A DNA stretch of 55,573 nt, filler included, from a bacterium (GCA_027062325.1; 3 parts of 3 records of this genome joined end to end with filler, not necessarily neighbours in it); one strand, 5' to 3'. Counted from the first letter of the whole stretch, positions 26,501 to 54,857 are shown. Notes: generated by a model from the letters alone, not told the origin. A program made the numbers and translations.

Positions 26501-26724
26501 GAACGGGGACAGGAGAATACGGGGCATATTACTACGGTACTGTATTTTTCTCAACGTATGGTGCGGGTATAGATCAACCGAAACCACCTGATCCGACGGT
26601 GAGTGTAAAATTGTATGCTCCGATACCTTCTTCTAACTTTTATGTAGGACCTGGTGGATATTACGGAGATTTTTCAGTTACAGCCGAACAGTGGTTTGAG
26701 CCTCAAATTCAATTAGGTGAGTAG
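20566..26724 (+). CDS. Giant surface protein with tandem carboxypeptidase-regulatory/Cna-B-like domains (5' truncated by gap)
   Basis: Frame is open from the gap edge. Repeated ~85-90-aa modules of the form G.V.D..T..PI.GA.V......T...G.F.F..L..G.Y......GY, plus an SdrD-B-like loop YLDEDKDGVKDADE. Confidence 0.8.
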   Translation, partial: DGKDTVIGNAAVVVTNISTNKRYTKLTDNSGVALFIGLDIGVYKVEVSKEGYQSSETTVVLDTPKEIIVYLKVEQSPNTVSGKIYDADTNEPISGAAIEVRDADNAMTFYGSARSDSDGEYVVYLKNLPTDRDQVYLKVGVTATGYKLAEKYPILTIGEYIKDLDFALKKATTEDTGKAQLTGIVKDAVTNQLLSGVQVYLKGEGFENTKVTDSFGVFSFSDLTSGKYLLVVKDSNNKYQPYMTELDLSSGLNTITIELHLVGEGATCELRGLVIDKDTGATVEGAVVGVLFEGGSKEVTTDSAGKFEFKKLETGQVTMYVLKDGYKPYNETFTLNAGLNLKTIKLEKSFKDSAYLGVTVYDESGKILSFPSDEATIYVQIFGNGSTIEMEATYGLAFPYVEVSSEIDYVMKVWADYYYPTVETVNLRPSEVKQMPVVLFHYKGSIGGRIIDKDSEMPVASATIVLTSDIKTYTGQTDDNGYFSFDTLPYGTYDIYITADYYQSTSEEIVLDATNPTYFKVYKLENSQTANIVVLLKDYSTGQPIKKASVELVYNGSMYDFTSQGSGVYVYQGATANVLLVLLVTAENFVTTTESFTLKLGETKVMNVNLRPMSFTIGGVVVDKTDHSKIQDAFVVVYGEGTYAVTTSAADGSFNVTGLRAGTYSVRVSADGYNTYSTEEILLGKATPSVFLEVELSKFKGTLIGWVLDASSSAPISGAQVNCVYGNETTDTSGFFKFEDLPSGEILLNFYAAGYEFVTKSVTVNGGDVASITVKLPPAAGGIEGRLRTPDFEPLEKVSVEIIQLGLVATTESDGSFRFTGVPAGDYLIYAFSPTIEATYDNITVNYYATAYVELITERKTTPELMFYVYDASTSLGIEGATVRVLWVDEKTSEEVKTATYGFTTLGVKVIGKKYIYLVYKEEYATYSSDVIEAPTSNVLIKVPLAPITRVVTVTVENTIDNSPIAGARVEITEGDNVGYVGYTNSKGVLVLPPVSKYSTVSVHVTKGDNFEDGYGSAGANEKQILVKLIPKYALVYGTVEDSEGYGMKNVHVYEESELLATTNSTGEFSLTVLLTDVVGKVVNLRFERDGYEVLYKTFYVSRGASYELVATMESLPSGSVTFKLMDKDGGLISSDKNATIEIVGALYSTTAVFKGPIQTIELPSGEYTAIATADWYCSSVDSFIVGAGESLIREIQLSPKKGKVWGYVYIRRIINGATFEEPLENVSVVVKDSAGNVEEVITNSSGLWFATVEYGTCSIVRAYHPTYGIYDTYEVVNKTGSISVFLDEPATQMATLIFYDKYWYITGEIYMKYHKDLNDIDVSQEIPPFASVTVKLLGYDEATWSTAVVNNGQYIFRGVPERKSGYKIYVISNEFYPLFADVGYTVESRFTGPTLELSPKFYKVSGRALDLFYYNLTGNDKEIPGVTIEVYDLLENSVETRVNADFAGSFEFSVPIGVYRIVAASPERCWLEKIVSSSLVATADVNLGNVYLFPSTETVTGSVYLDEDKDGVKDADEDWIRVAKNYLYKDTSLKILYTYRGLWVSTENYVDSNSSFELVVPVATSSCSYLGVDAYRTIRVSAENKLANADVNVWLYKKSKSLKIGMTEYSSIGAWICGRLIDAYLYNLSGAVLTVNQATVGVYSQDGTVKYASANVDAAGVFRVYIPRWPEEKVLLRIVPTEELSLKCNNQLVTERRYATLELYQKTSAECNVNTTYEINPVFGVVKLVIKYDARFWEWEFKKKNEWAVAYGVKSNTLHAGDWNMKPDPTEELITNITPNYYNEKQSDSSKKIAVQYPGIDLSNFTSDIRYSYWVNGYSMWVELQNMPGAVITLTHVPVGSHEFYVSAEGFWTSRVYRLIEYNVGDGTGTWEGIIGVCKDVLVTAEAAMMPMGVNAIVGYYGSFKVTDESSDKWLAWKWWLASDETNYATGYVEFLPMGWRYPLNSSSDPYLFTVYSFPASGNPAWILPHPALLPSYGTGTGEYGAYYYGTVFFSTYGAGIDQPKPPDPTVSVKLYAPIPSSNFYVGPGGYYGDFSVTAEQWFEPQIQLGE

Positions 26725-35985: not shown

Positions 35986-36669
35986 GTGGTGAGATTTAAA
36001 TCTGGTGCTGAGAGTAAGGTTTTTAAAGTAGATTTGCATTGTCATACTTCTGACTTTTCAGCATGTGCTCGTTCAAGTTTAGAAGAAGTTTTGGAAGTTG
36101 CTTTTTCTAAATTGGATACGTTGTTTATAACGGAGCATCACGTTATTTATCCTCACGAACAGATAAATTTTGTACTCTCTAAATACTCTGGTTTATTTGG
36201 AATTTTAAGTGTTATTCCTGCGCAAGAGGTTACGGTTTATGAAGGAGGAGACGTGTTAATCTACGGTGTGGATTTTGACATTCCTGCTCGGATAAGCTTG
36301 AAAAATTTAAGAGAAATTGTTCTCTCTTACAACTATGATGAAAGAGATGTTGTTGCTATATGGGCGCATCCTTATAGATTTGGAGCTCCTTTGGTTGAAT
36401 ATGTTGAGTTGATGGATTTTATTGATGCAATAGAGGTTTTGAATGGCAACTGCACAGATTATGAGAATGCGTTGGCTATTGAGCTTGCGGAGCGTATGGG
36501 GAAGCCTATGGTTGCAGGAAGTGATGCTCACAGGGCAAAAGATGTGGCAAGGCTTTACAATCTATCCTATGTTCCAATTCACAATGTTGGTGATTTAAAA
36601 TTGGCTTTAAAGAGTGGAAAGATTAGGCCGTGCTGTTTGGAGAGAATTGTAAATGGAAGTAAGAATTAG
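35986..36669 (+). CDS. PHP-domain metallophosphoesterase
   Basis: Motifs DLHCHT, TEHH, AHPYR, IEV.NG and GSDAH. Confidence 0.88.
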   Translation: MVRFKSGAESKVFKVDLHCHTSDFSACARSSLEEVLEVAFSKLDTLFITEHHVIYPHEQINFVLSKYSGLFGILSVIPAQEVTVYEGGDVLIYGVDFDIPARISLKNLREIVLSYNYDERDVVAIWAHPYRFGAPLVEYVELMDFIDAIEVLNGNCTDYENALAIELAERMGKPMVAGSDAHRAKDVARLYNLSYVPIHNVGDLKLALKSGKIRPCCLERIVNGSKN

Positions 36670-38005
36670 GGAAGAAGATCACGAACAAACAGATAGTTTT
36701 AATAAAAGTTTGAAACTGAAATGGAATAGAGAAAAATGCACGGGCTGCAGGGCTTGCGAAGTTGCATGTTTGGCAGCTTACAATGAGCAGCCTTTAGCGG
36801 TTAGTCTTTTATTTGTTGCTTCATCTCCGTTGAGATTCAAGAATGGGGAGATTGTTTTGTGTAAGCTTTGTAATGAATGCAAAGCTCAAGAGGCTTGTAC
36901 TTCTGGTGCTTTTAGAAGATCAAGCAAAGGTTTTGAAATAGATAGATATAGATGCACTTCTTGTTTGAGTTGCGTTGTTGCTTGTCCGTACGATGTGCCT
37001 TTTTACGATGGTAGTCGTGTTGTTATGTGTAATGCCTGTGACGGAGAATTTTCGTGCGTTAAAGCATGTAAAGGTGGAGCTTTAAGATTGGAAAGTTTGA
37101 AAGAAGAAAATTTTATAGGGAAAAGATGTGGAGAAGATGAAAATGAGTTGGAAGTATCGCGTTCAGAGATGAATTTTGTTGTTGGAGAAGGAGAGGTTGC
37201 ATGGGAGGTATTGAGAAGTTTAAAGGGGAAAAACAACTTTTTAGTGGGGCGCGTTTTTCCTTACTACTGTAGAAATATATCACTCATTGTTTTTAATTAT
37301 TCTTCGTTTAGAAAAGCAGAGATTGCGTCAAAAGATGAATTCTTTAAGGTTTGCAATGAGTTTATAGAAATTAAATATTATAGTGGTTTTGAAGAGAAAA
37401 TTTTAGAAGTTTTGGAGGAAAAAGTTGTCCGAAAAGAGGGTGATTTTGAAGTAAATATCTATCTTACTCCTGTTTTTGATATAAATGGAGTTTTGTTTGA
37501 GTTAGCAAGGAAGAGGGTTTATACTGAACCTAACAGAAGATTTTTGATTTATGGTACGGGCTTTAGAGCTCTCGAGTTTTGTTTGTTAGCTTCAGAAAAG
37601 GGATTTGAAGTTTTCTGGGCTTATCCTGGTAATTTCGGAGTTAAAACAGATCAAGAGGGGTTACTAAAAAGACTGTTATTTAGAAAGGGTATAAAAGTTT
37701 TTCCATGGTTTGAATTGGTGGAAGTGAAGCGTGGGTTTCTCTCCAACACTTATAGAATTATTTCTAAGAATGGGGAGATATTGGTTGGAGACTACTTTGT
37801 TGATTTTAGAAATTTAACTTACACCTATCCTTCATTTGATGTTGTTCAATTCAAAAATGCGCTGAAAAACTACAAAGTTAATTTAAAATTTGTTTCATTT
37901 TCAAAGCAAGAAATTTTCTCTAGGAGGTTTGAGGATTGGTGGATTTTTGAAAAAGATTACAAGGTGATCGTTAGGTATCCCTATAAAGTTAGTTTTAATA
38001 ACTAA
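36653..38005 (+). CDS. Multi-[4Fe-4S] ferredoxin domain fused to a degenerate FAD/NAD oxidoreductase-like domain
   Basis: Cys sets CTGCRACEVAC, CKLCNEC..EAC, CTSCLSCVVACP and CNAC...CVKAC. The C-terminal part has VVGEGEVA and IYGTGFRALE, resembling decayed Rossmann motifs. Confidence 0.65.
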   Translation: MEVRIREEDHEQTDSFNKSLKLKWNREKCTGCRACEVACLAAYNEQPLAVSLLFVASSPLRFKNGEIVLCKLCNECKAQEACTSGAFRRSSKGFEIDRYRCTSCLSCVVACPYDVPFYDGSRVVMCNACDGEFSCVKACKGGALRLESLKEENFIGKRCGEDENELEVSRSEMNFVVGEGEVAWEVLRSLKGKNNFLVGRVFPYYCRNISLIVFNYSSFRKAEIASKDEFFKVCNEFIEIKYYSGFEEKILEVLEEKVVRKEGDFEVNIYLTPVFDINGVLFELARKRVYTEPNRRFLIYGTGFRALEFCLLASEKGFEVFWAYPGNFGVKTDQEGLLKRLLFRKGIKVFPWFELVEVKRGFLSNTYRIISKNGEILVGDYFVDFRNLTYTYPSFDVVQFKNALKNYKVNLKFVSFSKQEIFSRRFEDWWIFEKDYKVIVRYPYKVSFNN

Positions 38006-38232: not shown

Positions 38233-39445
38233 ATGCCTGTGAAATTTTACAACAAAATTGACGATGTGCCGTATCTTAGCGAAGAGGAGAAAAAAGAGTT
38301 GAAACCAGTTGCAGAAAAATTTAACTTTTTAGTCAATGATTATTATCTGGGACTTATAAATTGGAATGATCCCAATGATCCAATAAGAAGGCTTGTGATT
38401 CCAACAGCTGATGAAATAAATGATGATTGGCCAACTGATCCTTCTAAAGAGTCCCACTACACGATTATGAAAGGAGTACAGCATAAGTATAAATCTACAT
38501 GTCTTTTTTTGGTTAGTTCTGTATGTGCGGGGGTTTGTCGCTATTGTTTTAGAAAGCGTATATTCTTTCAGGGAAAAGATCCTGAAAAACTTGAAGATTT
38601 GGAAAAGGCTTTGGAGTATGTGCGTGAGCACAAAGAGATTACAAATGTGTTGTTGACAGGTGGGGATCCACTCATGCTTCCTACAAAAGATTTGAGGCGA
38701 GTAATAGAGGGGCTTCGTCAGATAGAGCATGTTAGGACTATAAGATTGGGAACACGTGTTCCAGTTTACTATCCACAGCGTATTTTGGAAGATNNNNNNN
38801 NNNNNNNNNNNNNNNNNNNNNNNNNNNNNNNNNNNNNTTAATTAATTAANNNNNNNNNNNNNNNNNNNNNNNNNNNNNNNNNNNNNNNNNNNNGAAGATG
38901 ATGAACTTGTTGGTATGCTTTCAGAAAATAGCAAGCTTGATAAGAGAATATACATAATTACTCATTTCATGCATCCAAGAGAACTTACAGATGTTGCGAG
39001 AAAAGCCATAGATAAAGTTTTAAAGGCTGGAATTATAATGGCAAATCAAACTCCACTTATTGCAGGGATAAATGACAATCCAGAGACGCTACGAGATTTA
39101 CTTAATGAGCTTGCGTTTGCAGGAGTTCCGCCTTATTACATCTTCCAATGTCGTCCAACTGTCGGTAACAAGACTTACTCTGTGCCGGTGGAACGTGCTT
39201 ATAGAATAATAGAACAGGCTAAGAGTCAGGTGACAGGGTTAGCAAAGAGAGCTAAATATGCTATGTCTCATGCTACTGGAAAGATTGAGATAATTGGTTT
39301 AGATGATGAGTATATATACTTTAAGTATCACAGGGCAGCTCATGATGAGGATAGTGGTAAGTTTGTTATTGCCAAAAGGAATCCAGAAGGGTATTGGTTT
39401 GATGATTTTGAGGTTGTAAAAGAAATTAAGTTGGTGGATTTGTAA
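38233..39445 (+). CDS. KamA-family radical SAM enzyme (lysine 2,3-aminomutase-like); one gene interrupted by an assembly gap
   Basis: Before the gap: HKY, CAGVCRYCFRKR, LLTGGDPL and R.GTR.P. After it: THF.HP.E, NQTPL..GIND, PYY.FQ and GKIE. GAAGAT occurs on both gap edges. Confidence 0.88.
38794..38893. other. Assembly gap with artificial linker
   Basis: 44 N + TTAATTAATTAA + 44 N. Confidence 0.98.
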
Positions 39446-39480: not shown

Positions 39481-39510
39481 GGGGGGCTTTGGTGGCCCCC
39501 TTTTGTTTTA
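39481..39510 (+). terminator. Intrinsic terminator after the KamA-family gene
   Basis: GGGGGC-tttggtg-GCCCCC followed by TTTTGTTTT. Confidence 0.85.
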
Positions 39511-39512
39511 TC

Positions 39513-39542
39513 TTGAGAAAAAGAAAATGGTTGCTGTATAAT
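39513..39542 (+). promoter_or_regulatory. Putative promoter of the rpmF-fab operon
   Basis: TTGAGA-N18-TATAAT, directly downstream of the terminator. Confidence 0.55.
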
Positions 39543-39626: not shown

Positions 39627-39836
39627 ATGGCAGTGCCAAAAAGGCATAAGTCAACAGCTCGTCGTAGAATGAGAGAGGCTATGTGGAGAAGAAGACTTAG
39701 AATTCCTAATTTGGTAAAGTGTTCAAATCCTGCATGTGGCCAGCTCATAAGGGCACATCGTGTATGTCCTTACTGTGGGTGGTACAAGGGTAAGCAGGTT
39801 TTAGAAGCAGAGGCTAAGGGAGAAGTCAACGTATAA
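39627..39836 (+). CDS. rpmF: 50S ribosomal protein L32 (Zn-binding type)
   Basis: MAVPKR..S..RR, CSNPAC...HRVCPYCGWYKG; RBS AGGAGG. Confidence 0.97.
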   Translation: MAVPKRHKSTARRRMREAMWRRRLRIPNLVKCSNPACGQLIRAHRVCPYCGWYKGKQVLEAEAKGEVNV

Positions 39837-39864
39837 GCTCACGTTTTGTAAGTGAGGTAATGCG

Positions 39865-40863
39865 ATGGGAAATAGTGAGGTTACAGCTGTAGTTGATGCT
39901 ATGGGAGGAGACAGAGCACCTGAAGAGATTGTGAAGGGTGCTCTGCTTTTTTTAAAAAGAAATAAAGGACTAAAAGGGTCTGTAAGGGTTGTATTAGTTG
40001 GGGATAGAGAAAAGATTGAGTCTATATGTGGTGATTGTGCAGGAATTGAAATAATTCATACTGATAAATGGTTGGGGATGCATGAAAAATGGAATAGGCG
40101 TGATAGAGAGAATTCTTTAGCAGTCTCGATGGATATTGTGAAGCAGCGGGAGAATGCTTTTTTAATTTCTGCAGGTAATACAGGAGCTGTTACCGAAGGT
40201 TCATTTTTTACTTACAGAATGATTGAGGGGGTTAAAAGGCCTGCAATACCTACTATAATTCCAAGGTTTTACAAGAAAGAAGAGCCATTTGTGTTGTTAG
40301 ATGCTGGAGCAAATGCTGATTGCAAACCAGAGTTTTTAAAGCAATTTGCAATAATGGGGGCTGCTTATTATACTGCTTTGTTTGGTAAAGCACGTCCTAA
40401 AGTAGCGTTATTAAATATTGGTGAAGAGAATATAAAGGGAAATGCACTTGTGAAGGAAACGGATAAATTGATGAAGGATCACTCCAGTGATTTGTATGAG
40501 TATGTTGGATACATAGAGGGGCATACGATGTTTTCTGAAGATGTTGATGTTGTTGTAGCAGATGGATTTGTAGGAAATATCGTTTTGAAGAGTTTGGAGG
40601 GATTAGCTAAAGAGTTGTTGGGACTTATTAAGGATTCTGTATTTATGAAGTTAGGAGTATTTTTAAGTGGGTTGTATAAAAAGCTAAAATATGCAGATTA
40701 TCGTGAATGGGGAGGAGCTCCACTGTTAGGAGTGAAAAGACTTGTGATTATTGCTCATGGGAGTTCGGATGCCAAGGCTATAGCTAATGGTATTGATGTT
40801 GGTGTAAGGCTCACAGAGAGAGGGCTTATAGGTAGGATAAAAAGTATGATAGCAGAGGATTGA
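39865..40863 (+). CDS. plsX: Phosphate acyltransferase PlsX
   Basis: Motifs VDAMGGD.AP, SAGNTGA, LDAGAN, LNIGEE..KG, DGF.GN..LK and AHGSS. Confidence 0.97.
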   Translation: MGNSEVTAVVDAMGGDRAPEEIVKGALLFLKRNKGLKGSVRVVLVGDREKIESICGDCAGIEIIHTDKWLGMHEKWNRRDRENSLAVSMDIVKQRENAFLISAGNTGAVTEGSFFTYRMIEGVKRPAIPTIIPRFYKKEEPFVLLDAGANADCKPEFLKQFAIMGAAYYTALFGKARPKVALLNIGEENIKGNALVKETDKLMKDHSSDLYEYVGYIEGHTMFSEDVDVVVADGFVGNIVLKSLEGLAKELLGLIKDSVFMKLGVFLSGLYKKLKYADYREWGGAPLLGVKRLVIIAHGSSDAKAIANGIDVGVRLTERGLIGRIKSMIAED

Positions 40864-40988
40864 TAATGTGGTGAATCAGCGTTGAAAATTTTCTCTGACG
40901 TTGTCAAGATTTAAATTTTTAATATACTCATTGTAAGAAGTGTGCATTTAGATGTTAAATGAGTTATAGGTGTGAGGAGGCGAATGAT

Positions 40989-41981
40989 ATGTTTATTCCC
41001 ATGAAGATTGCAGGATTAGGAATGGCTTTAGGGGATAAGGTTATAGACAATGACTGGTTTGTAAAAGAATTGGGACTGGATACATCAGATGAATGGATAA
41101 CTGAGAGGACTGGAATTAAAAAGAGGTACTTTCTTTCTGATCCAGATAAGGCTTTATCTTACATTGGTGCGAAGTCTGCACGGCAAGCTTTGGAAATGGC
41201 GGGGGTGAAGCCTGAGGATGTTGATTTAGTAATATGTGCTACTTTCACTCCCGATTATCAAATGCCTGCGACAGCGTGTTTGATAAAAGAAGAAATAGGT
41301 GCTAAAAATGCTGGAGCTTACGATATGCAGATTGCATGTAGTGGTTTTGTTTATGCGCTTATTAATGCTGCTTCTATGGTTGCGAGCGGTATGTTCAAGA
41401 ACGTCTTGATAGTAGCCGGAGATGTGATTTCACGTTTTTTGGATTTTGAAGATAGAGGAACCTGTATCCTCTTTGGAGATGGAGCAGGAGCTGCTCTTAT
41501 TACACAAGCTGAGAATGGAGAAGGAATATTTGCTGTTGAGGTTGGAGCAGATGGGAGTGCACCTGAGAAACTTTTGATTCCTGCAGGTGGAAGTGCGCGT
41601 CCTGCAAGTGAGGAAACGGTTAAGAATAAGGAGCACTATCTGCGTATGAATGGGCGTGAAATTTTCAGGTTTTCTGTGAATGTTGTTCCTCAAACTATGA
41701 AATTACTCCTTGAAAAAAGTGGACTTTCTAAAGAGGAGGTTGATCTTTGGATTCTTCATCAGGCAAATATTAGAATAATAGAAGCTGCTGCAAAGCGCAT
41801 GGGAGTTCCAATGAGTAAGATGTACAACACTATAGCTGAATATGGGAATATTAGTGCTGGAACTATTCCTATTACGATGTATGAGGCTTACAAAAACAAT
41901 GTCTTAAAAAGAGGATCCATTCTTGGTCTTATAGGGTTTGGTGGAGGGTTAAGTTGGGGTGGTTTGATATTGAGATTTTAA
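40989..41981 (+). CDS. fabH: Beta-ketoacyl-ACP synthase III
   Basis: Motifs TSDEWI..RTGI, ACSGF (Cys), LFGDGAGA, HQAN (His) and YGN.SA (Asn). GAGGAGG precedes ATG40989. Confidence 0.96.
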   Translation: MFIPMKIAGLGMALGDKVIDNDWFVKELGLDTSDEWITERTGIKKRYFLSDPDKALSYIGAKSARQALEMAGVKPEDVDLVICATFTPDYQMPATACLIKEEIGAKNAGAYDMQIACSGFVYALINAASMVASGMFKNVLIVAGDVISRFLDFEDRGTCILFGDGAGAALITQAENGEGIFAVEVGADGSAPEKLLIPAGGSARPASEETVKNKEHYLRMNGREIFRFSVNVVPQTMKLLLEKSGLSKEEVDLWILHQANIRIIEAAAKRMGVPMSKMYNTIAEYGNISAGTIPITMYEAYKNNVLKRGSILGLIGFGGGLSWGGLILRF

Positions 41982-42031
41982 TTCTACAAATCGCAGTGAA
42001 TTTTATGAAAAAAATGCAAGGGGTGCTGTGA

Positions 42032-43153
42032 ATGAGTGTTTTGAAGTTTGTAAAGCGTCATATCAGGAACATGACGAATCAATTGGAGTGGGCAAGTGAA
42101 GAGGCGGATAGGACAGGAAACTATCCGGCGGAGGTTTTTGATCTTTTAAAAAAGAGTGGAATGTTTGCACTTCTCGCTCCCGAAAAAAGTGCTGGTGCTG
42201 GTTTGAGTTTTTCTGAATGGGTAGAAGTAGTTCGTGATGTTTCTTACTATTGCCCTTCAGCTGGAGCAATGGTTGCAGCTTTTAATGGGTTGGTTTTATT
42301 TCCCCTTGTTAGATTTGGTATGGGGAAGTTTGATGATTTGGTAAAGAGGATAGCCTCTGGTGAGATAACGGGGGCATTTTCAATAACCGAAAGAGATGCT
42401 GGTAGTGATGTAAGTTCTATAAAGACTGCCTTAATTGATGATCAGAAGGGATGGCGGATAAAAGGCTACAAGGTATTTGTATCGGGAGGTAGTATAGCTG
42501 ATTTCATAATAGCTTTTGCTAAGCACACGCGAAATGGAGAACTTACAAATAGAATAAGTGCGGTTGTTGTGCCGCGAGAAGCTTTCAAAGTTGTGCGTGA
42601 TGAGGAAAAGATGGGTCTGAAGGGAACCTATACTTCAGAGGTTATCATAGATGGTTGGATTTCCAAGGATAATATCCTATTCAGGCCTCAGCTTGGATTC
42701 AAAGTGATAGCTGACACTTTGGATGTTGGAAGAGTTGGAATTGCAGCACAAGCAGTTGGTATAGCACAAAGAGCTTTGGATGAGGCGAAACGTTATATGA
42801 ATGAAAGGACTCAATTTAATCAGAAATTACGTGAATTTCAGGGATTGCAGTGGTACATAGCAGATATGGCTACTGAGCTTGAGGCTGCATGGCAGTTAAC
42901 CTTGAAGGCTGCTGCAGAACTTGCAAAGCCGGGAGGCCGTCCGACACGTTACGCTTCCATGGCAAAGTATAAGGCTGCAGAGGTTGCAAATTTTGTGGTA
43001 GATAAGGCGTTGCAAATATTTGGTGGTTACGGTTATGTTAAAGGAGCTGTAGTAGAAAGGTTATACAGAGATGTTAGAGTGTTGCGTATCTATGAGGGGA
43101 CTAGTGAGATTCAGAAGTTGGTTGTATTTCAGGAGGAGATGAAAGGAATATGA
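42032..43153 (+). CDS. Acyl-CoA dehydrogenase family flavoprotein (short-chain/Bcd-like) inside the fab operon
   Basis: Motifs TE.DAGSD, G.K.F, KMG, LD.GR.GIAAQAVG, R.QF, QIFGGYGY and RIYEGTSEIQ (catalytic Glu355). Confidence 0.93.
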   Translation: MSVLKFVKRHIRNMTNQLEWASEEADRTGNYPAEVFDLLKKSGMFALLAPEKSAGAGLSFSEWVEVVRDVSYYCPSAGAMVAAFNGLVLFPLVRFGMGKFDDLVKRIASGEITGAFSITERDAGSDVSSIKTALIDDQKGWRIKGYKVFVSGGSIADFIIAFAKHTRNGELTNRISAVVVPREAFKVVRDEEKMGLKGTYTSEVIIDGWISKDNILFRPQLGFKVIADTLDVGRVGIAAQAVGIAQRALDEAKRYMNERTQFNQKLREFQGLQWYIADMATELEAAWQLTLKAAAELAKPGGRPTRYASMAKYKAAEVANFVVDKALQIFGGYGYVKGAVVERLYRDVRVLRIYEGTSEIQKLVVFQEEMKGI

Positions 43154-44028
43154 GTAGTGTGAAAAATGATTGGAAGATTGCCTGTTTTCCTGATATAGGA
43201 GCAAGGACAGATGTAGTTAATTGGGCAAGAAGGCACTTTCCAAAGGCTCACATAGTTTCGTTTTGGTTGAGAAATCCTGTTGATGCTGATAGTGATGAGG
43301 TGTACAAGCTTGAGGTAAGTAATACCTCTCCGTTTGAATTTGGAAAGCTTTTAGCAGAGTTTACCAAAGCTGAAAATTATGACTTGTTTGTGTTTCCTGC
43401 AACTTATGAAGGAAAGGTGGCTGCAGGAGTTCTAGCAGCTGCATTGGGATTAGGAGCAGTGTCGGATGTTGAGTTTGTTAAAGAGGAGCTTTATTACAAA
43501 AGTGTTGCAGATAATTTAGTTGGTATGAAGATTTTGTCAAGTAGAGCAGTGATTACGGTATCAGGATGGCTTGAGCTTGTTAAAGAGGCTTCTGGTGATT
43601 TCTCAACTAAGGTGCTTGAGGTTAAGGAAGATGTGTTGAATAGAGAATTTCAAAAGATAAAAGGAAAGGGAAGGCTGATAATAGGAATAGGTGGAGGAGT
43701 TTCGAAGAGTGCTATGCCCCTTGTTTTGCGTTTAGCAGAGTTGTTAGGGGCGGATATTGTGGGAACGCGAGTTGCTTTTGACAGAGGTTTAATAGATAAA
43801 TCTCGGTATGTAGGGCAAACTGGTATAAGTATAAACGGTGATATATACCTTGCACTTGGAATTTCTGGAGCTGCTCAGCATATGATAGGTGTTCCAAAGA
43901 GAATGAAGATTATTGCAGTAAATGTGGATGAGAAGGCTCCAATTGCTGCACTTAGTGACTACTTTGTTAAGGAGAGGGCAGAGGATTTTGTGAGAGCTAT
44001 GGTGGATATGCTTGAGGGGAAAGCGTGA
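43150..44028 (+). CDS. etfA: Electron transfer flavoprotein alpha subunit (divergent)
   Basis: Motifs AT..G...A..LAA.LG, GTR, VGQTG, LGISGAAQH..G and AVN.D..API. ATGA overlap with the ACAD stop codon. Confidence 0.9.
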   Translation: MSSVKNDWKIACFPDIGARTDVVNWARRHFPKAHIVSFWLRNPVDADSDEVYKLEVSNTSPFEFGKLLAEFTKAENYDLFVFPATYEGKVAAGVLAAALGLGAVSDVEFVKEELYYKSVADNLVGMKILSSRAVITVSGWLELVKEASGDFSTKVLEVKEDVLNREFQKIKGKGRLIIGIGGGVSKSAMPLVLRLAELLGADIVGTRVAFDRGLIDKSRYVGQTGISINGDIYLALGISGAAQHMIGVPKRMKIIAVNVDEKAPIAALSDYFVKERAEDFVRAMVDMLEGKA

Positions 44029-44041
44029 GGAGGGATAGAGT

Positions 44042-44938
44042 ATGCTTTTCATGTTTCCAGGTCAAGGAAGTCAATATGTAGGAATGGGCAAGAATTTATA
44101 TGAAAACTTTGATGTGGCCAAGAAAATGATGGATAGCGCTAATGAAATTTTAGGGTTTGACATTGTAAAGCTCATGTTTGAAGGGCCTGAGGAAGAGTTG
44201 AAAAAGACTTTGAATACTCAGCCTGCAATATTTTTAGTGTCAGTAGTTGCTGATGCTGTATTGAAAGAGAAAGGCTATGAGCCGACCGTGGTTGCAGGTC
44301 ACAGCGTAGGAGAGTATGCAGCTCTTTGTTCAGCGGGGGTTGTTAGTTTTGAAGATGGGTTGAGATTGGTTAGAAAGAGAGGAGAGTTTATGTATGAAGT
44401 GAAAGGTGGAGCAATGCTTGCAGTAGTGGGACTTTCAAAGGATATGATAGAAGAGGCTTGTGCAGGTAAAGATGCGTGGATTTCTTTATTTAACACTGAT
44501 ACTCAAATTGTATGTTCAGGTACAGAAGAGGCTATAGATCAGCTTTATGCTGAATTGAGTAATAAGGCCAAGGAGGCAGGAATTAGAAGGTGTAAGTTGG
44601 TTAAGTTGAAGGTAAGCGGACCTTTTCACTGTCCGCTTATGAAAAAGCCTGCTGAGAAGTTGGCTAGTGAAATTGAAAAAGTTGAGTTCAAAGAGCCTAA
44701 AGTTGATGTTGTGCCAAATGTTACTGCTAAACCAACCCGTGATGTTGATGTATTGAAGAAAGCGCTGATTGATCAGATGATAGAACCTGTTAGATGGTGG
44801 GAGAGCGTTATGGTTATAAAGGAAAGTGGAGTGGATAAAGCCTTTGAGGTTGGGCCAGGAAAAGTTTTGAAGGGGATGGTAAGACGCCTGTTTAAAGAGG
44901 TTGTATCGTTCCCAGATGATGGAATAGACAAAGTTTAA
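44042..44938 (+). CDS. fabD: Malonyl-CoA:ACP transacylase
   Basis: Motifs FPGQGSQ..GMG, TQPA, GHSVGE, VSGPFH and EVGPGKVL. Confidence 0.97.
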   Translation: MLFMFPGQGSQYVGMGKNLYENFDVAKKMMDSANEILGFDIVKLMFEGPEEELKKTLNTQPAIFLVSVVADAVLKEKGYEPTVVAGHSVGEYAALCSAGVVSFEDGLRLVRKRGEFMYEVKGGAMLAVVGLSKDMIEEACAGKDAWISLFNTDTQIVCSGTEEAIDQLYAELSNKAKEAGIRRCKLVKLKVSGPFHCPLMKKPAEKLASEIEKVEFKEPKVDVVPNVTAKPTRDVDVLKKALIDQMIEPVRWWESVMVIKESGVDKAFEVGPGKVLKGMVRRLFKEVVSFPDDGIDKV

Positions 44939-44951
44939 TGGAGGGGTTATT

Positions 44952-45644
44952 ATGGACAAGTGGGTAGTTGTAACAGGAGCAGGTAGGGGAATTGGGCTTG
45001 CTATAGCTCGTGAACTTAAAAATGCAGGATACAAAGTTGCGGGATTTTCGCGCTCTACGGATCCTGCAGAAGGAGTATTTGATTACTACGATAAGCTTGA
45101 TGTATCAGATTTTGAGGCTGTTAAGAATTTTGCTTCTAAGATAGAGGGTGAAGTTTGGGCAATTGTGAATAACGCAGGAATTACAAAAGATGCGTTGTTT
45201 GCTCGAATGACAGAAGAGGACTTCGACAAAGTTATAGCTGTTAATTTGAAAGGGGTTTTTAACGTCTGCAAGGCTTTTGAGGCAAAACTCAGGAAAAGTA
45301 AGGGAGTCATTGTTAACATAACTTCTATTTCTGGGCTATACGGTAATGTTGGACAGGCAAACTATGCTGCTAGTAAGTCAGCTTTGATAGGTTTTACCTA
45401 CACGCTTGCTAAGGAATATGGCCGTTATGGGGTGAGAGCTGTAGCTGTTGCCCCAGGTTTGATTGAGACAGATATGAGTGCAAAGATTCCAGAGAAGATA
45501 AAGGAACAGATGAAGTCCATGATACCGCTTAAGCGCTTTGGAAAGGTAGAGGAAGTGGCCAAGTTGGTTAGATTTCTCATATCTGAGGATGCTTCTTACA
45601 TAACAGGAACCTGCATAGAGGTTGCAGGAGGGTTCAGATTTTAG
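44952..45644 (+). CDS. fabG: 3-oxoacyl-ACP reductase
   Basis: Motifs TGAGRGIG, NNAGITKD, GN.GQANYAASK and PG.IETDM. Confidence 0.95.
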   Translation: MDKWVVVTGAGRGIGLAIARELKNAGYKVAGFSRSTDPAEGVFDYYDKLDVSDFEAVKNFASKIEGEVWAIVNNAGITKDALFARMTEEDFDKVIAVNLKGVFNVCKAFEAKLRKSKGVIVNITSISGLYGNVGQANYAASKSALIGFTYTLAKEYGRYGVRAVAVAPGLIETDMSAKIPEKIKEQMKSMIPLKRFGKVEEVAKLVRFLISEDASYITGTCIEVAGGFRF

Positions 45645-45700
45645 TTAATCTTATTGTGTCAGGTTTTATGCATCAACTTTTTAAAAGGGAGGGATAGAAA

Positions 45701-45943
45701 ATGACTCGTGAAGAAGTGTTTTCAAAGGTAAAGGATTTGCTTGCTCAGTCAATAGGAGAGGATAAAGCAGATTCCATTACAGAGGATGCTCTCTTGATGG
45801 ATGATCTTGGACTTGATTCTCTCGAAACTATGGATTTGATTATGAATCTTGAGAGTGAGTTTGGAATTTCCATTCCTGATGAGGATATTGAGAAAATTAA
45901 AACTGTGGGAGATGTTGTGAACTACATAATGGAGAAAATATAA
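45701..45943 (+). CDS. acpP: Acyl carrier protein
   Basis: Acidic 80-aa protein with DLGLDSLE (phosphopantetheine Ser), E.EFGI.IPD and TVGD. Confidence 0.97.
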   Translation: MTREEVFSKVKDLLAQSIGEDKADSITEDALLMDDLGLDSLETMDLIMNLESEFGISIPDEDIEKIKTVGDVVNYIMEKI

Positions 45944-45960
45944 GTGTTGTTTAATTAAAA

Positions 45961-46001
45961 ACGCGGGCAGGTGCTTCTTGTGAAGTGCCTGCTCGTTTGT
46001 T
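45961..46001 (+). terminator. Long stem-loop between acpP and fabF (partial terminator or mRNA stabiliser)
   Basis: CGGGCAGGTGCTTC-ttgt-GAAGTGCCTGCTCG, a 14-bp stem with G-U pairs, followed by TTTGTT. Confidence 0.7.
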
Positions 46002-46027
46002 GATTATACTCAATAAATGATTGAGGG

Positions 46028-47269
46028 GTGGTTGAGTTGAAAAGGGTTGTCGTTACGGGTATTGGATTGGTGACGCCTATTGGTTTGACAAAAGAGTTCA
46101 GAAATGGGATTTTTGAAGGAAAAAACGGAGCAGACTTAATAACTCGATTTGATGCTAGTGATGTTGGTAGTAAAGTTGCAGCAGAAGTCAAGGATTTTGA
46201 TCCTACGCCATGGATAGATAAAAAAGACTTGAAGCGTATGGATCTTGCTACTCAGTATGCTGTTGTAGCAGCGGCGCAAGCAATGGAAGATGCTGAATTG
46301 GAAGGAAAATTTGATCCAGAAAGAGCTGGGGTTATTGTTGGCTCCGGAATTGGTGGAATTGGTACAGTTGTTGAGCAAACACTAATTTGTGAGCAGCGTG
46401 GTGCCCGCCGTGTTTCACCGTTTATGATCCCAATGCTCATAGTAAACATACCTGCTGCAACTATTGCGATACGTTGGGGATTTGAGGGGGTTAATTTTGC
46501 AGTTGTTACAGCTTGCGCAAGTGCGGCTCACTCAATTGGGGAGGCTTTCTGGAAGATAAGGAGTGGCCAACTTGATGTAGCTTTGGCTGGTGGAACTGAA
46601 GCAGCAATAATTAAGGTGGCTGTTGCAGGATTTTCTAACATGAGGGCACTTACTACCCGTAACGATGATCCAGAGCATGCTTCTCGTCCGTTTGATAAAA
46701 ATAGAGACGGCTTCTTGATGGGAGAAGGGGCAGGAATTTTGGTGCTTGAGGAACTTGAACATGCTAAAAAGAGGGGCGCCAAAATTTATGCAGAAATTGT
46801 GGGATACGGTGCAAATGATGATGCGTATCACATGACAGCCCCGCATCCAGAGGCAAAGGGAATGGCCAAGTGTATGGAATTGGCCTTGAAAGATGCAGGA
46901 ATTAAACCAGAGGATATAGGTTATATCAACGCCCATGGAACAAGTACTCCTCTTAATGATAAAACCGAAACTCTGGCGATAAAGAAGGTATTTGGAGATC
47001 ATGCTTACAAACTGAAGGTAAGCAGCACAAAGTCAATGATAGGTCACCTCTTGGGGGCAACTGGAGCTGTAGAAGCAGCAGCTGTTGTGTATTGTTTGCA
47101 GGAACAAAAAGTGCATCCAACGATAAATTACGAGGAGCCAGATCCAGATTGTGATTTGGATTACACTCCTAACAAAGCAGTGGAGTGGGAGTTTGAGTAC
47201 GCACTTTCAAATTCTTTTGGATTTGGAGGACACAACGCATCGCTGGTGTTCAGAAAATGGAGCGAGTAG
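46028..47269 (+). CDS. fabF: Beta-ketoacyl-ACP synthase II
   Basis: Motifs [23 protein letters not shown] and NSFGFGGHN. Confidence 0.97.
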
Positions 47270-47949
47270 ATTATTCTCTTATAGAAAAAAAGGCGCATGT
47301 AGCGCTTAGGGATGTAAAAAAGACTGTCCGAATGTTGGTGCACTACTTTAACAATGCTGGTAAGCTAGAGTGGCGTACACATAAATCTATTGATGTAAAG
47401 TCAAACTATGAGGACCTGGAGTTTGTTGGAGATGCATTGATAAATTGGTTGGCAGCACGTTTTTTATTCACGCGTGGTGTAAAAATAGAGGGAATGTCGT
47501 CTGAGGGAAGTTTGACCTTTATAAGAAGGCGTTTGGTTGATGAAAAGGCTCTTGCTTACTTTGCGAAAGTTGTGGGGTTGGATAAATACATCCTGATTAA
47601 CGATGCTAATTCTAAGACTCTTTCGGTATTGTCTGATGTAGCTGAAGCTTTCGCGGCCCAAGTTTGGTTTGAGTTTGGGGAGAAAAAGGTTGAGGAGATA
47701 TTTACAGCTTATTGGTCAGTTGTTCTTGAGTTTGTAAATGAAAATACAGTTATTGATCCTAAGACTAGATTGAATAAGTATATTCAAAAGAACCACTTGA
47801 ATATAGAGTATGTCTATACTACAAAGGAAAAAGAGCATGTATGTTTAATAAAGGTTGGCGGTATCCCCATAGCTTATGGAAAAGATTACGTAAAAAAAGA
47901 GGCAGCCCAGAAGGCGGCATTTGAGGTTGGCAAAATTTTAGGGATTTAA
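47257..47949 (+). CDS. rnc: Ribonuclease III (divergent)
   Basis: Motifs [25 protein letters not shown] and a dsRBD (DPKTRL...KKEAAQKAA); canonical position after fabF. Confidence 0.85.
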
Positions 47950-53774: not shown

Positions 53775-54857
53775 ATGGTTAGGTTTAGAGTTGATGCAGC
53801 AGATATTAAGAAAAATGTTGTTGATTTGTTGAAAATTATAAAGACTAGAAGCTTTCAACCAATTTTAGCAGCTGTATATTTTAAGGCTGCTGGAGATAAG
53901 CTTTTGATGGTTGGGGCAACTCAGGAAGCTCAACTTTATGTTGAGAGTGGCGCAGTTATTGAGGAAGAGGGTGAGTTCTTGCTTCCTGCAAAGATTGCTG
54001 CTGATATTTTTAAGGATGCAGAGGGAGAGGTTCACTTTGAAATAAGTGAGGGAAATGTCTTTATAAAGATGGAAAGCGTTGAGTACAAGTTGCGTGTTGT
54101 GCCGGCTGATGATTATCCTTACAAAGAAGTGCCAACATTTGAAGGTCGTTTGACGTTACCTTCAGAGGTAATGGATTTAATTGTAAAGAAGGTGGCGATA
54201 GCTGCGGCTACTGATCCTGTTGATATTATGAGTGGAGTGTTGCTTGAGTTTGAAGAGGGAAAAGTTACAGCGGTTGCTTCTGATAACTACAGACTTGCAT
54301 GGTATGAGTTTGGCATAGATAATCAGTTGGTGGGTGAAAGATACATTGTTCCTCAGGCTGTCTTTGCGAGATTGGCAGACATATCTGATGAGGAGGTTTA
54401 TTTAACCTTTTCTGAAGGAAAAGTTTTTGCTAAAGGTGATAGAGGGGCAGTTTTAATTTCGAATCTTTTGCAGGGGTCTTTTCCAAATTGGCGTCAAGTA
54501 ATACCTCAGATGCATACGACGATGATTGAGTTTGAAAAGAGAGAGTTTCAACAGGCTTTGAAAAGAGTTGTTCCTATGGCAGAAGATAGACGCAGTGGTG
54601 TAAAGCTCAGTATATCCTCAGAGAAGATAGTGTTAGAAATAATGAATAGTCAGTTTGGAGAGGTAAAATCGAATGTACCTCTTTTGAGCTTTGAAGGAGA
54701 GGAAATGGAGATAACATTTGGAATAAATTACCTTGCCGCAGGTGTTGATGCTGCTGAAGAGGATACTGTGGTTTTGAAATTAGCTGGACCTATGAGTGCA
54801 GCCTATCTTTCAAGTGGGAAATTTAACTACATTTTAGTTCCAATGAGAGTTATATAA
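53775..54857 (+). CDS. dnaN: DNA polymerase III beta clamp
   Basis: 360 aa with PIL, DDYP, VASDNYRL, G.FP.W..VIP, FG..YL and Y.LVPMR. Confidence 0.92.
   Translation: MVRFRVDAADIKKNVVDLLKIIKTRSFQPILAAVYFKAAGDKLLMVGATQEAQLYVESGAVIEEEGEFLLPAKIAADIFKDAEGEVHFEISEGNVFIKMESVEYKLRVVPADDYPYKEVPTFEGRLTLPSEVMDLIVKKVAIAAATDPVDIMSGVLLEFEEGKVTAVASDNYRLAWYEFGIDNQLVGERYIVPQAVFARLADISDEEVYLTFSEGKVFAKGDRGAVLISNLLQGSFPNWRQVIPQMHTTMIEFEKREFQQALKRVVPMAEDRRSGVKLSISSEKIVLEIMNSQFGEVKSNVPLLSFEGEEMEITFGINYLAAGVDAAEEDTVVLKLAGPMSAAYLSSGKFNYILVPMRVI

What the first reader, a model, noticed from the sequence alone, without database searches (positions are those of the whole stretch)
39627..47949. Acyl-CoA dehydrogenase plus EtfA occupy the enoyl-ACP reductase slot of the FAS-II operon
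Seen: the order is rpmF-plsX-fabH-ACAD-etfA-fabD-fabG-acpP-fabF-rnc, all co-oriented. Spacing is tight (50 nt, an ATGA overlap, 13 nt) with no terminator or mobility signs around the pair. The ACAD keeps its catalytic Glu (IYEGT), and no FabI/FabK/FabL/FabV is seen in the window. Established: many anaerobes place fabK between fabH and fabD; Bcd-Etf reduces crotonyl-CoA, the same chemistry as enoyl-ACP reduction; and some ACADs act on ACP-bound substrates in secondary metabolism. Inference: this pair may be an undescribed ETF-dependent enoyl-ACP reductase class for membrane fatty-acid synthesis. Alternatives are supplying short or branched acyl-CoA primers to FabH, or anaerobic acyl-ACP desaturation.
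Basis: partly seen in the sequence, partly recalled or inferred. Interest (0 to 1): 0.9.

Follow-up and report, generated by a model that had tools for sequence, protein, structure and literature searches.

The report
EtfB-less ACAD–EtfA pair in fab operon
In an uncultured hydrothermal-vent bacterium, the fatty-acid synthesis operon carries a flavin dehydrogenase and a lone electron-transfer partner where other bacteria carry the last reductase of the cycle, so the pair may be an unrecognised form of that reductase, but this is unproven.

Summary
The order is rpmF-plsX-fabH-ACAD-EtfA-like-fabD-fabG-acpP-fabF-rnc, all on the + strand, with a 50-nt gap, an ATGA overlap and a 13-nt gap around the pair.

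The pair is very rare. An exhaustive search of 1.84 billion representatives found one closer relative of the EtfA-like protein. That relative, the only 49%-identical ACAD and the best FabH hit each lie on a single NCBI contig of 121,862 bases, so probably the same one.

There is no EtfB in the window, so the usual NADH-binding subunit is missing.

This scan found a three-gene form (ACAD-EtfB-ferredoxin-EtfA) in the same slot on other DNA. I re-found it. In 121 Nitrospirota genomes it was present in 53, and none of those 53 had FabI or FabK, while 58 of the other 68 did.

The window's ACAD is not in that clade. The analogy therefore rests on position and chemistry, not descent. No whole genome is held, so an ordinary enoyl-ACP reductase elsewhere cannot be excluded.

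Best reading, at 0.45: an ETF-type flavoprotein enoyl-ACP reductase with an unknown electron donor.

The parts
39481..39542 (+). Terminator-like hairpin (39481-39501) followed by a promoter-like site (39513-39542); likely upstream boundary of the operon
   Evidence: 8-pair hairpin with T tail, and the best promoter-like match (11 of 12). These are consensus scans only, and their counts did not exceed the shuffles.
39627..39836 (+). rpmF, ribosomal protein L32
   Evidence: Pfam PF01783 79.4 bits; TIGR01031 63.5 bits, over cut-off.
39865..40863 (+). plsX, phosphate acyltransferase
   Evidence: TIGR00182 285.4 bits, cut-off 243.4.
40959..41981 (+). fabH, ketoacyl-ACP synthase III. The database gene call starts 10 codons later (330 aa).
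   Evidence: NF006829 378.9 bits, cut-off 249. P0391 is the 330-aa form.
42032..43153 (+). Acyl-CoA dehydrogenase family flavoprotein (P0001, 373 aa, pI 9.09); candidate enoyl-thioester reductase
   Evidence: Three ACAD Pfam domains. Best NCBIfam match is AcrC acryloyl-CoA reductase, 310 bits, below the 640 cut-off. Best PDB matches are CarC 6fah_C and C. difficile Bcd 5ol2_C, about 226 bits. Glu355 sits in YEGT. One orthologue, P0122, at 49% identity. pI.
43150..44028 (+). EtfA-like protein (P0002, 292 aa). Both EtfA domains are present, with a diverged domain I and a conserved FAD-binding domain II. There is no ferredoxin domain and no EtfB partner gene.
   Evidence: PF00766 70.1 bits and PF01012 31.2 bits. 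AlphaFold2 mean pLDDT 85.4. The Foldseek top 19 ranks are all EtfA chains, E down to 1.5e-18. It keeps every invariant and nearly invariant column of 65 EtfA sequences in domain II. Only one closer relative, P0242.
44042..44938 (+). fabD, malonyl-CoA:ACP transacylase
   Evidence: TIGR00128 320.5 bits, cut-off 260.9.
44952..45644 (+). fabG, ketoacyl-ACP reductase (230 aa, short)
   Evidence: TIGR01830 259.9 bits, below the 297.75 cut-off. SDR Pfam families match. A Ser...Tyr-x3-Lys pattern is present.
45701..45943 (+). acpP, acyl carrier protein (pI 4.05)
   Evidence: NF002148 91.7 bits, cut-off 71. DSL motif present. pI.
45963..45996 (+). Strong hairpin after acpP
   Evidence: 15 pairs, 8 of them G-C.
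46028..47269 (+). fabF, ketoacyl-ACP synthase II
   Evidence: TIGR03150 632.1 bits, cut-off 493.75.
47257..47949 (+). rnc, RNase III
   Evidence: Pfam RNase III and dsRBD domains. TIGR02191 105.4 bits, below cut-off.

Best explanation
The ACAD and the EtfA-like protein are co-translated subunits of a flavoprotein enoyl-thioester reductase. It serves the fatty-acid synthesis cycle encoded around it, taking the place that FabK, FabI or the ACAD-EtfB-Fd-EtfA module holds in other bacteria.

Proposed mechanism, all inferred:
- The FAD of EtfA-like domain II takes single electrons from a donor that is not encoded in the pair. That donor could be reduced ferredoxin or flavodoxin, or an EtfB encoded elsewhere.
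- It passes them to the FAD of the ACAD.
- The ACAD, with Glu355 as the proton-handling residue, reduces trans-2-enoyl-ACP to acyl-ACP.

Shown: the gene order, the coupling, the intact catalytic and flavin motifs, the lack of EtfB in the window, and the rarity of the pair.

Inferred: the direction of the reaction, ACP rather than CoA as carrier, and the electron donor.
For: 1. Position and coupling. The pair sits between fabH and fabD with an ATGA overlap and 13 nt to fabD. Its composition matches its neighbours, and no terminator-like site separates them.

2. The same slot holds FabK in L258. It holds ACAD-EtfB-Fd-EtfA in L286 and in 6 of 14 further Nitrospirota loci. In 10 of those 14 the module lies next to fabD.

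3. In 121 Nitrospirota genomes, 53 carry the three-gene-type ACAD. None of the 53 has FabI (229 bits or more) or FabK (over cut-off), against 58 of the other 68. An ACAD-ETF module therefore stands where an ENR is otherwise missing.

4. The ACAD keeps Glu355 and all 39 invariant columns of 60 ACADs. Its best solved relatives are CarC and C. difficile Bcd, which work as reductases (their physiology is recalled). Its sister branch consists of ACADs encoded beside etfB-etfA.

5. The EtfA-like protein folds confidently as a two-domain EtfA and keeps the conserved domain II columns.

6. A second, distant organism has ACAD (49%), EtfA-like (33-39%) and the best FabH hit (54%), each on a single NCBI contig of 121,862 bases.

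7. Both ACADs of this two-member family are basic (pI 9.09 and 9.03). The median of 118 other ACADs is 5.99, and 7 of the 118 reach 8.5. The ACP is very acidic (pI 4.05). This is weak and only suggestive of ACP docking.
Against: - No EtfB is present in the window (tblastn, best E 0.19). The NADH-binding, bifurcating half of every characterised Bcd-type ETF is therefore absent, and no donor is identified.
- The window's ACAD is 32-35% identical to the fab-embedded three-gene ACADs, less than to ordinary ACADs (41-44%). It lies outside their clade. The Nitrospirota result supports it only by analogy.
- No genome is held. FabI/K/L/V, FabZ and EtfB may lie elsewhere, and fabZ is in any case not in this operon.
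- The Nitrospirota exclusion follows lineages. The genomes are not independent, their completeness is unknown, and FabL and FabV were not tested there.
- Adjacency on the sister contig was not seen.
- No ACAD has been shown to serve as the ENR of primary fatty-acid synthesis. Nothing was found in four library searches.
Confidence: 0.45

Rival explanations
1. The pair is an ordinary CoA-level short-chain enzyme of the butyryl-CoA dehydrogenase type. It reduces crotonyl-CoA or a branched enoyl-CoA to supply the acyl-CoA primer used by the adjacent FabH. A conventional enoyl-ACP reductase lies elsewhere in the genome.
For: The ACAD's nearest relatives and best solved matches act on CoA esters. 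It lies directly after fabH. The genome is unseen.
Against: - Primer supply would need a whole pathway (thiolase, hydroxyacyl-CoA dehydrogenase, crotonase). None of these is in the operon or among the 44 window ORFs scanned.
- The unusually basic ACAD differs from 111 of 118 other ACADs.
- The same slot holds an ENR or an ENR-excluding module elsewhere.
Confidence: 0.17
2. The pair works in the oxidising direction on acyl-ACP. It makes trans-2-enoyl-ACP from a saturated intermediate as the first step of anaerobic unsaturated fatty-acid synthesis, in the manner of FabX. The EtfA-like protein carries the electrons away.
For: ACADs are dehydrogenases by default, and ETF normally accepts their electrons (established knowledge, recalled). 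FabX of Helicobacter shows that such a back-reaction exists in fatty-acid synthesis (PMC8626469, abstract seen in the listing). No FabA or FabM was seen in the window.
Against: - No isomerase is encoded with the pair.
- No acceptor for ETF (ETF:quinone oxidoreductase, FixCX) appears among the ORFs scanned.
- In Nitrospirota the analogous module replaces FabI and FabK rather than adding to them. That fits an essential reductase, not an accessory desaturase.
Confidence: 0.1
3. The pair is a decaying remnant of a three-gene ACAD-EtfB-EtfA module. EtfB has been lost, the EtfA has diverged, and the enzyme is inactive or has another role. Its place in the operon is historical.
For: EtfB is absent. 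EtfA-like domain I is strongly diverged (PF01012 only 31.2 bits). Both proteins sit on long branches.
Against: - Both reading frames are intact, and catalytic and flavin motifs are kept.
- The same two proteins persist in a second organism at only 49% and 33-39% identity. That implies long purifying selection on an EtfB-less pair, if the sister also lacks EtfB, which was not seen.
- The tight translational coupling is kept.
Confidence: 0.1

Closest known systems
Bcd-EtfAB and CarCDE: electron-bifurcating butyryl-CoA dehydrogenase and caffeyl-CoA reductase complexes (PDB 5OL2, 6FAH)
   Same: The ACAD subunit matches at about 226 bits, with the catalytic Glu kept. The EtfA FAD domain II matches at 65-70 bits, and both domains share the fold. 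The chemistry, reduction of an alpha,beta-enoyl thioester, is the same (recalled).
   Different: - No EtfB gene is present, so there is no second FAD and no NADH site (the role of EtfB is recalled).
- There is no ferredoxin domain of the kind CarE has.
- The pair lies inside the housekeeping fab operon, not in a fermentation cluster.
- The ACAD is basic, pI 9.1.
ACAD-EtfB-ferredoxin-EtfA module inside fab operons. It is unpublished as far as my four searches show. This scan noted it repeatedly on other DNA, and I re-found it here in Nitrospirota and Elusimicrobia MAGs.
   Same: It occupies the same slot between fabH and fabD, with the same order (ACAD first) and the same protein superfamilies.
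   Different: - The window lacks EtfB and the ferredoxin domain.
- Its ACAD is 32-35% identical to the module's ACADs and lies in another clade.
- The three-gene ACADs are 71-100% identical across 53 Nitrospirota genomes. The window's family has two known members.
FabK (enoyl-ACP reductase II, TIGR03151)
   Same: Same operon position: in L258 FabK lies between fabH and fabD. It is also a flavoprotein (recalled).
   Different: It belongs to an unrelated fold and family (the NMO/TIM-barrel FMN family, recalled). It has no homologue in the window.
Acyl-ACP and peptidyl-carrier-protein dehydrogenases of secondary metabolism (MbtN, RedW, PigA)
   Same: They are members of the ACAD superfamily that act on carrier-protein-bound substrates.
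   Different: They score far below their cut-offs: MbtN 121.6 against 700, RedW 143.9 against 650, PigA 124.7 against 500. They oxidise rather than reduce and work without an ETF gene alongside (recalled).
YgcQ-type short EtfA of Pseudomonadota
   Same: Similar length (285-287 aa), and the nearest clusters by language-model features (0.93-0.94).
   Different: YgcQ is encoded with an EtfB-like partner, YgcR (recalled). This is a feature-based lead only, with no alignment.

Membership tests
Acyl-CoA dehydrogenase superfamily | N-terminal, middle and C-terminal ACAD domains | tested here: met
   PF02771 41.5 bits, PF02770 65.7 bits and PF00441 159.9 bits, all over their cut-offs.
Acyl-CoA dehydrogenase superfamily | Catalytic glutamate in the Y-E-G-T motif near the C-terminus | tested here: met
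   Glu355 lies in RIYEGT. The column is invariant in 60 ACADs.
Bcd-EtfAB / CarCDE bifurcating complexes | EtfB subunit carrying the second FAD and the NADH site, encoded with the ACAD and EtfA | tested here: not met
   tblastn of three EtfB proteins against all six frames of the window gave a best E of 0.19. No ETF-domain ORF other than the EtfA-like one appears among the 44 ORFs scanned. The rest of the genome could not be searched.
Bcd-EtfAB / CarCDE bifurcating complexes | EtfA with FAD-binding domain II | tested here: met
   PF00766 70.1 bits. The protein keeps all 7 invariant and 13 nearly invariant columns of 65 EtfA sequences. The fold matches EtfA chains.
Bcd-EtfAB / CarCDE bifurcating complexes | Physical complex of the ACAD with ETF | not testable with these tools
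   The one modelling job returned no verdict (see Tried and rejected). A pull-down or a structure is needed.
Fab-embedded ACAD-EtfB-Fd-EtfA module | ACAD belongs to the tight clade of L286, L323, L262 and L317 | tested here: not met
   In the tree of 57 rows the window and its sister form their own clade (100*). That clade is sister (95*) to L220 and L090 and lies outside the module clade (95*). Identity to the module ACADs is 32-35%.
Fab-embedded ACAD-EtfB-Fd-EtfA module | Located between fabH and fabD in the housekeeping fab operon | tested here: met
   for the window; for the module.
Fab-embedded ACAD-EtfB-Fd-EtfA module | N-terminal 2x[4Fe-4S] ferredoxin domain on EtfA | tested here: not met
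   No Fer4 family matches P0002. Fer4 is present in the L286 and L323 EtfA.
Known enoyl-ACP reductases (FabI, FabL, FabK, FabV) | Sequence membership of the SDR, NMO or FabV families | tested here: not met
   The ACAD and the EtfA-like protein match none of these families. The window has no FabI or FabK homologue.
Enoyl-ACP reductase (as a function) | Reduces trans-2-enoyl-ACP; the genome lacks any other ENR | not testable with these tools
   No genome is held, and there is no biochemistry.
Carrier-protein-dependent ACADs (MbtN, RedW, PigA) | Score over the NCBIfam equivalog cut-off | tested here: not met
   121.6 against 700, 143.9 against 650 and 124.7 against 500.

The most novel reading that the evidence does not exclude
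A minimal two-protein enoyl-ACP reductase: an ACAD plus a lone EtfA, without EtfB and without an NADH site. It would be fed by ferredoxin or flavodoxin. It would have been recruited into the FabK slot independently of the widespread ACAD-EtfB-Fd-EtfA module. If so, ACAD/ETF flavoproteins have replaced the classical enoyl reductases of fatty-acid synthesis at least twice in anaerobes.
Probability: 0.3. Interest if true: 0.85.

Novelty: new variant of a known kind. Interest (0 to 1): 0.7.

Why it matters
Enoyl-ACP reductase is the step of bacterial fatty-acid synthesis with the most enzyme diversity, and it is a drug target. Only SDR-type (FabI, FabL, FabV) and FMN-type (FabK) enzymes are described (recalled).

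An ACAD/ETF-based reductase would be a further class built from beta-oxidation and fermentation parts. It would explain how many anaerobes without FabI or FabK make lipids. It would also tie lipid synthesis to low-potential electron carriers.

This window adds a stripped-down, EtfB-less form of independent descent. It would test which parts of the ETF machinery are really needed. The question can be tested directly with two small soluble proteins and an acyl carrier protein.

Tried and rejected
Own genome:
- The genome search 'own' twice: no genome is held.

Scans of genome contigs:
- With the ACAD and its sister: 160 loci. All are ordinary ACADs, and only L004 has any fab gene, 6 kb away.
- With FabF: 6 loci. 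The Chloroflexia ACADs near fabF are separated from it by PALP and AIRS genes, which is coincidence.
- With the two-ACAD alignment: nothing.

Scan of metagenome contigs:
- With the EtfA-like alignment: only the window's own contig at 100%; the next best is 31%.

Structure and expression:
- Complex prediction of the ACAD with the EtfA-like protein: no verdict (score 0.00, controls not run). This is neither for nor against binding.
- The look-up of sequencing runs: no RNA holder listed. Parts of the stretch without cover in runs X2-X4 say nothing.
- ESM Atlas: only generic or YgcQ-type EtfA clusters.

Other searches:
- FabV search with PF12242 on five genomes: no hit, but the control rang nowhere, so it is uninformative.
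- Taxonomic placement failed. The best FabH and FabF hits are 45-54% identical and spread over many phyla.
- Horizontal insertion of the pair was considered and rejected. Its composition equals its neighbours and there are no mobility genes.
- I tried to read chain-length or carrier specificity from pocket residues. I dropped this because no coordinates are available and the mapping to solved ACADs rests on memory.

Literature (passages of two papers):
- Nothing on an ACAD-ETF enzyme as the ENR of fatty-acid synthesis.
- Supplementary files were not seen.

Full report
WHAT IS THERE

The window carries, all on the + strand, these genes:

| Gene | Coordinates | Note |
|---|---|---|
| rpmF | 39627-39836 | |
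| plsX | 39865-40863 | |
| fabH | 40959-41981 | |
| ACAD | 42032-43153 | P0001, 373 aa |
| EtfA-like | 43150-44028 | P0002, 292 aa |
| fabD | 44042-44938 | |
| fabG | 44952-45644 | |
| acpP | 45701-45943 | |
| fabF | 46028-47269 | |
| rnc | 47257-47949 | |

A terminator-like hairpin and the best promoter-like site lie just before rpmF, and a strong hairpin follows acpP. No terminator-like site lies between fabH and fabD. These are consensus scans whose counts did not exceed their shuffles. GC, GC3 and GC skew of the two genes equal those of their neighbours.

AcpP has its DSL serine motif, and FabG has a Ser...Tyr-x3-Lys pattern.

The arrangement is not an assembly artefact:
- Logan contigs of the probable source run bridge fabH|ACAD and run from the ACAD to rnc.
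- A 151-base contig from another study bridges EtfA-like|fabD without a difference.
- A separately deposited 16,680-base contig is identical across the operon.

The run label is 'hydrothermal vent metagenome'.

THE TWO PROTEINS

The ACAD has the three ACAD domains and Glu355 in RIYEGT. It keeps all 39 invariant columns of an alignment of 60 ACADs. Its matches are:
- Best curated family: AcrC (acryloyl-CoA reductase), 310 bits, far below the 640 cut-off.
- Carrier-protein ACADs (MbtN, RedW, PigA): 122-144 bits against cut-offs of 500-700.
- Best solved relatives: CarC (6fah_C) and C. difficile Bcd (5ol2_C), about 226 bits. Ordinary short-chain ACADs follow closely at 210-219 bits.

The second protein is a true two-domain EtfA. 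ETF_alpha scores 70.1 bits and ETF 31.2 bits. The AlphaFold2 model has mean pLDDT 85.4, and the first 19 Foldseek ranks are EtfA chains aligned over both domains.

Domain II keeps every invariant and nearly invariant column of 65 EtfA sequences. From memory, these include the Arg, Thr, Gln and His that contact FAD in human ETF. Domain I is short and diverged, and there is no ferredoxin domain.

WHAT IS MISSING

There is no EtfB. Three EtfB proteins taken from fab-linked modules find nothing in the six frames of the window (best E 0.19). The only ETF-domain ORF among the 44 distinct ORFs scanned is the EtfA-like one.

In characterised Bcd-type complexes EtfB carries the bifurcating FAD and the NADH site (recalled). 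The pair alone therefore has no evident electron donor.

The window also has no FabI or FabK homologue and no FabZ. No whole genome is held for this window.

HOW RARE IT IS

- In the word-indexed search of 5.8 billion proteins, the EtfA-like protein had no relative above 90 bits.
- In the exhaustive search of 1.84 billion representatives, 9,470 proteins matched at E up to 0.001. Only one, P0242 (285 aa, 138 bits), stood above the generic EtfA level of 104 bits or less.
- The ACAD has a single orthologue, P0122 (373 aa, 49% identity, 367 bits). The next hit scores 279 bits.
- P0122, P0242 and the best FabH hit P0392 (54%) are each NCBI-only, each on one contig, and each contig is 121,862 bases long.

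The three are therefore very probably linked in a second, distant organism, though I could not see their order. That contig is in neither collection I could scan.

THE THREE-GENE RELATIVE OF THE IDEA

Notes of this scan say that an ACAD-EtfB-EtfA module was found before on other DNA, between fabH and fabD, in many anaerobic phyla. One of those reports is marked 'part of it fell', with no detail given. I treated these notes as a lead and tested it.

A sample of 80 FabH loci gave the following.
- L286 (a Nitrospirota MAG): plsX-fabH-ACAD-EtfB-ferredoxin-EtfA-fabD-fabG-acpP-fabF-rnc.
- L323: the same with inserted genes.
- L262 (Elusimicrobia): the module after fabF-rnc.
- L317: the module divergent from plsX.
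- L258: FabK in the slot (499.9 bits).

The four module genomes had no FabK over cut-off, only NMO-family paralogues of 97-187 bits. They had no FabI above 81 bits and no FabV hit, although the FabV control was silent.

In 121 Nitrospirota genomes:

| Class | Genomes |
|---|---|
| Module-type ACAD (71-100% identity) | 53 |
| FabI-like hit of 229 bits or more | 52 |
| FabK over cut-off | 7 (one also has FabI) |
| None of the three | 10 |
| Overlap between module and FabI or FabK | 0 |

As a table, 0 of 53 against 58 of 68 gives Fisher p = 2e-24. The genomes are related, so this is not a count of independent events.

Of 14 module loci fetched, 10 have the module beside fabD, 6 of them as the full operon. 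The other 4 do not within 7 kb.

This is good comparative support that an ACAD-ETF module can stand in for the ENR.

HOW THE WINDOW RELATES TO THAT MODULE

It relates by position, not by descent. The window's ACAD is 32-35% identical to the module ACADs, less than to ordinary ACADs.

In a tree of 57 rows (quick search, SH-aLRT support):
- The window and its sister form a long-branched pair (100*).
- That pair is sister (95*) to two ACADs from ordinary ACAD-EtfB-EtfA clusters (L220, L090).
- The module ACADs form a separate clade (95*).

So the pair most likely descends from an ordinary ACAD-EtfB-EtfA cluster, lost or relocated EtfB, and entered the same operon slot independently.

One shared oddity of the two-member family is its charge. 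The pI values are 9.09 and 9.03, against a median of 5.99 for 118 other ACADs, of which 7 reach 8.5. The module ACADs have pI 6.0-6.9. The ACP has pI 4.05. This fits docking to an acidic partner, but it is weak evidence.

READING

The most likely reading (0.45) is that the pair is a flavoprotein enoyl reductase for the surrounding fatty-acid synthase. The EtfA-like FAD would relay electrons to the ACAD from a donor encoded elsewhere.

Rivals:
- A CoA-level enzyme supplying FabH primers (0.17).
- An oxidising acyl-ACP dehydrogenase for unsaturated fatty acids (0.10).
- A decaying remnant (0.10).

The rest of the probability is open.

Four full-text searches found no paper describing an ACAD-ETF enzyme as the ENR of fatty-acid synthesis. 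I read passages of two hits, and neither is relevant.

Noticed in passing
window 38233-38841 and 38915-39445: Two adjacent + strand ORFs match the N-terminal and C-terminal halves of KamA-family radical-SAM aminomutases. This is a split gene, a frameshift or a sequencing error.
   Followed up: no
window 36653-38005: A 450-aa protein with N-terminal 4Fe-4S ferredoxin-type domains lies 1.6 kb upstream of the operon. It could be a low-potential redox partner. No link was tested.
   Followed up: no
window 20665-26724: A very large ORF of 2019 aa, acidic (pI 4.66). It was never scanned against a family library.
   Followed up: no
G001 and G006-G125 (Nitrospirota sample); loci L286, L323, L328-L341: The module-type ACAD (53 genomes) and FabI or FabK (58 genomes) never co-occur in 121 genomes, and 10 genomes have none of them. 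In 10 of 14 fetched loci the ACAD-EtfB-Fd-EtfA module lies beside fabD.
   Followed up: yes
L166:6537-12676: A long-branch member of the module ACAD clade lies beside FabF-like and FabD-like genes in a deltaproteobacterial MAG. It may be a polyketide-like or second fatty-acid cluster.
   Followed up: no
G001-G004 (e.g. G003:C5:29922-30950): Genomes with the fab-linked module still carry NMO-family proteins of 355-390 aa that score 97-187 bits to the FabK model, far below its 453-bit cut-off. Whether any of them is a divergent enoyl reductase is open.
   Followed up: no
window 53775-54857: dnaN (DNA polymerase III beta subunit) lies near the window's end. The cumulative GC skew rises over the whole window, and nearly all genes are on the + strand.
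   Followed up: no
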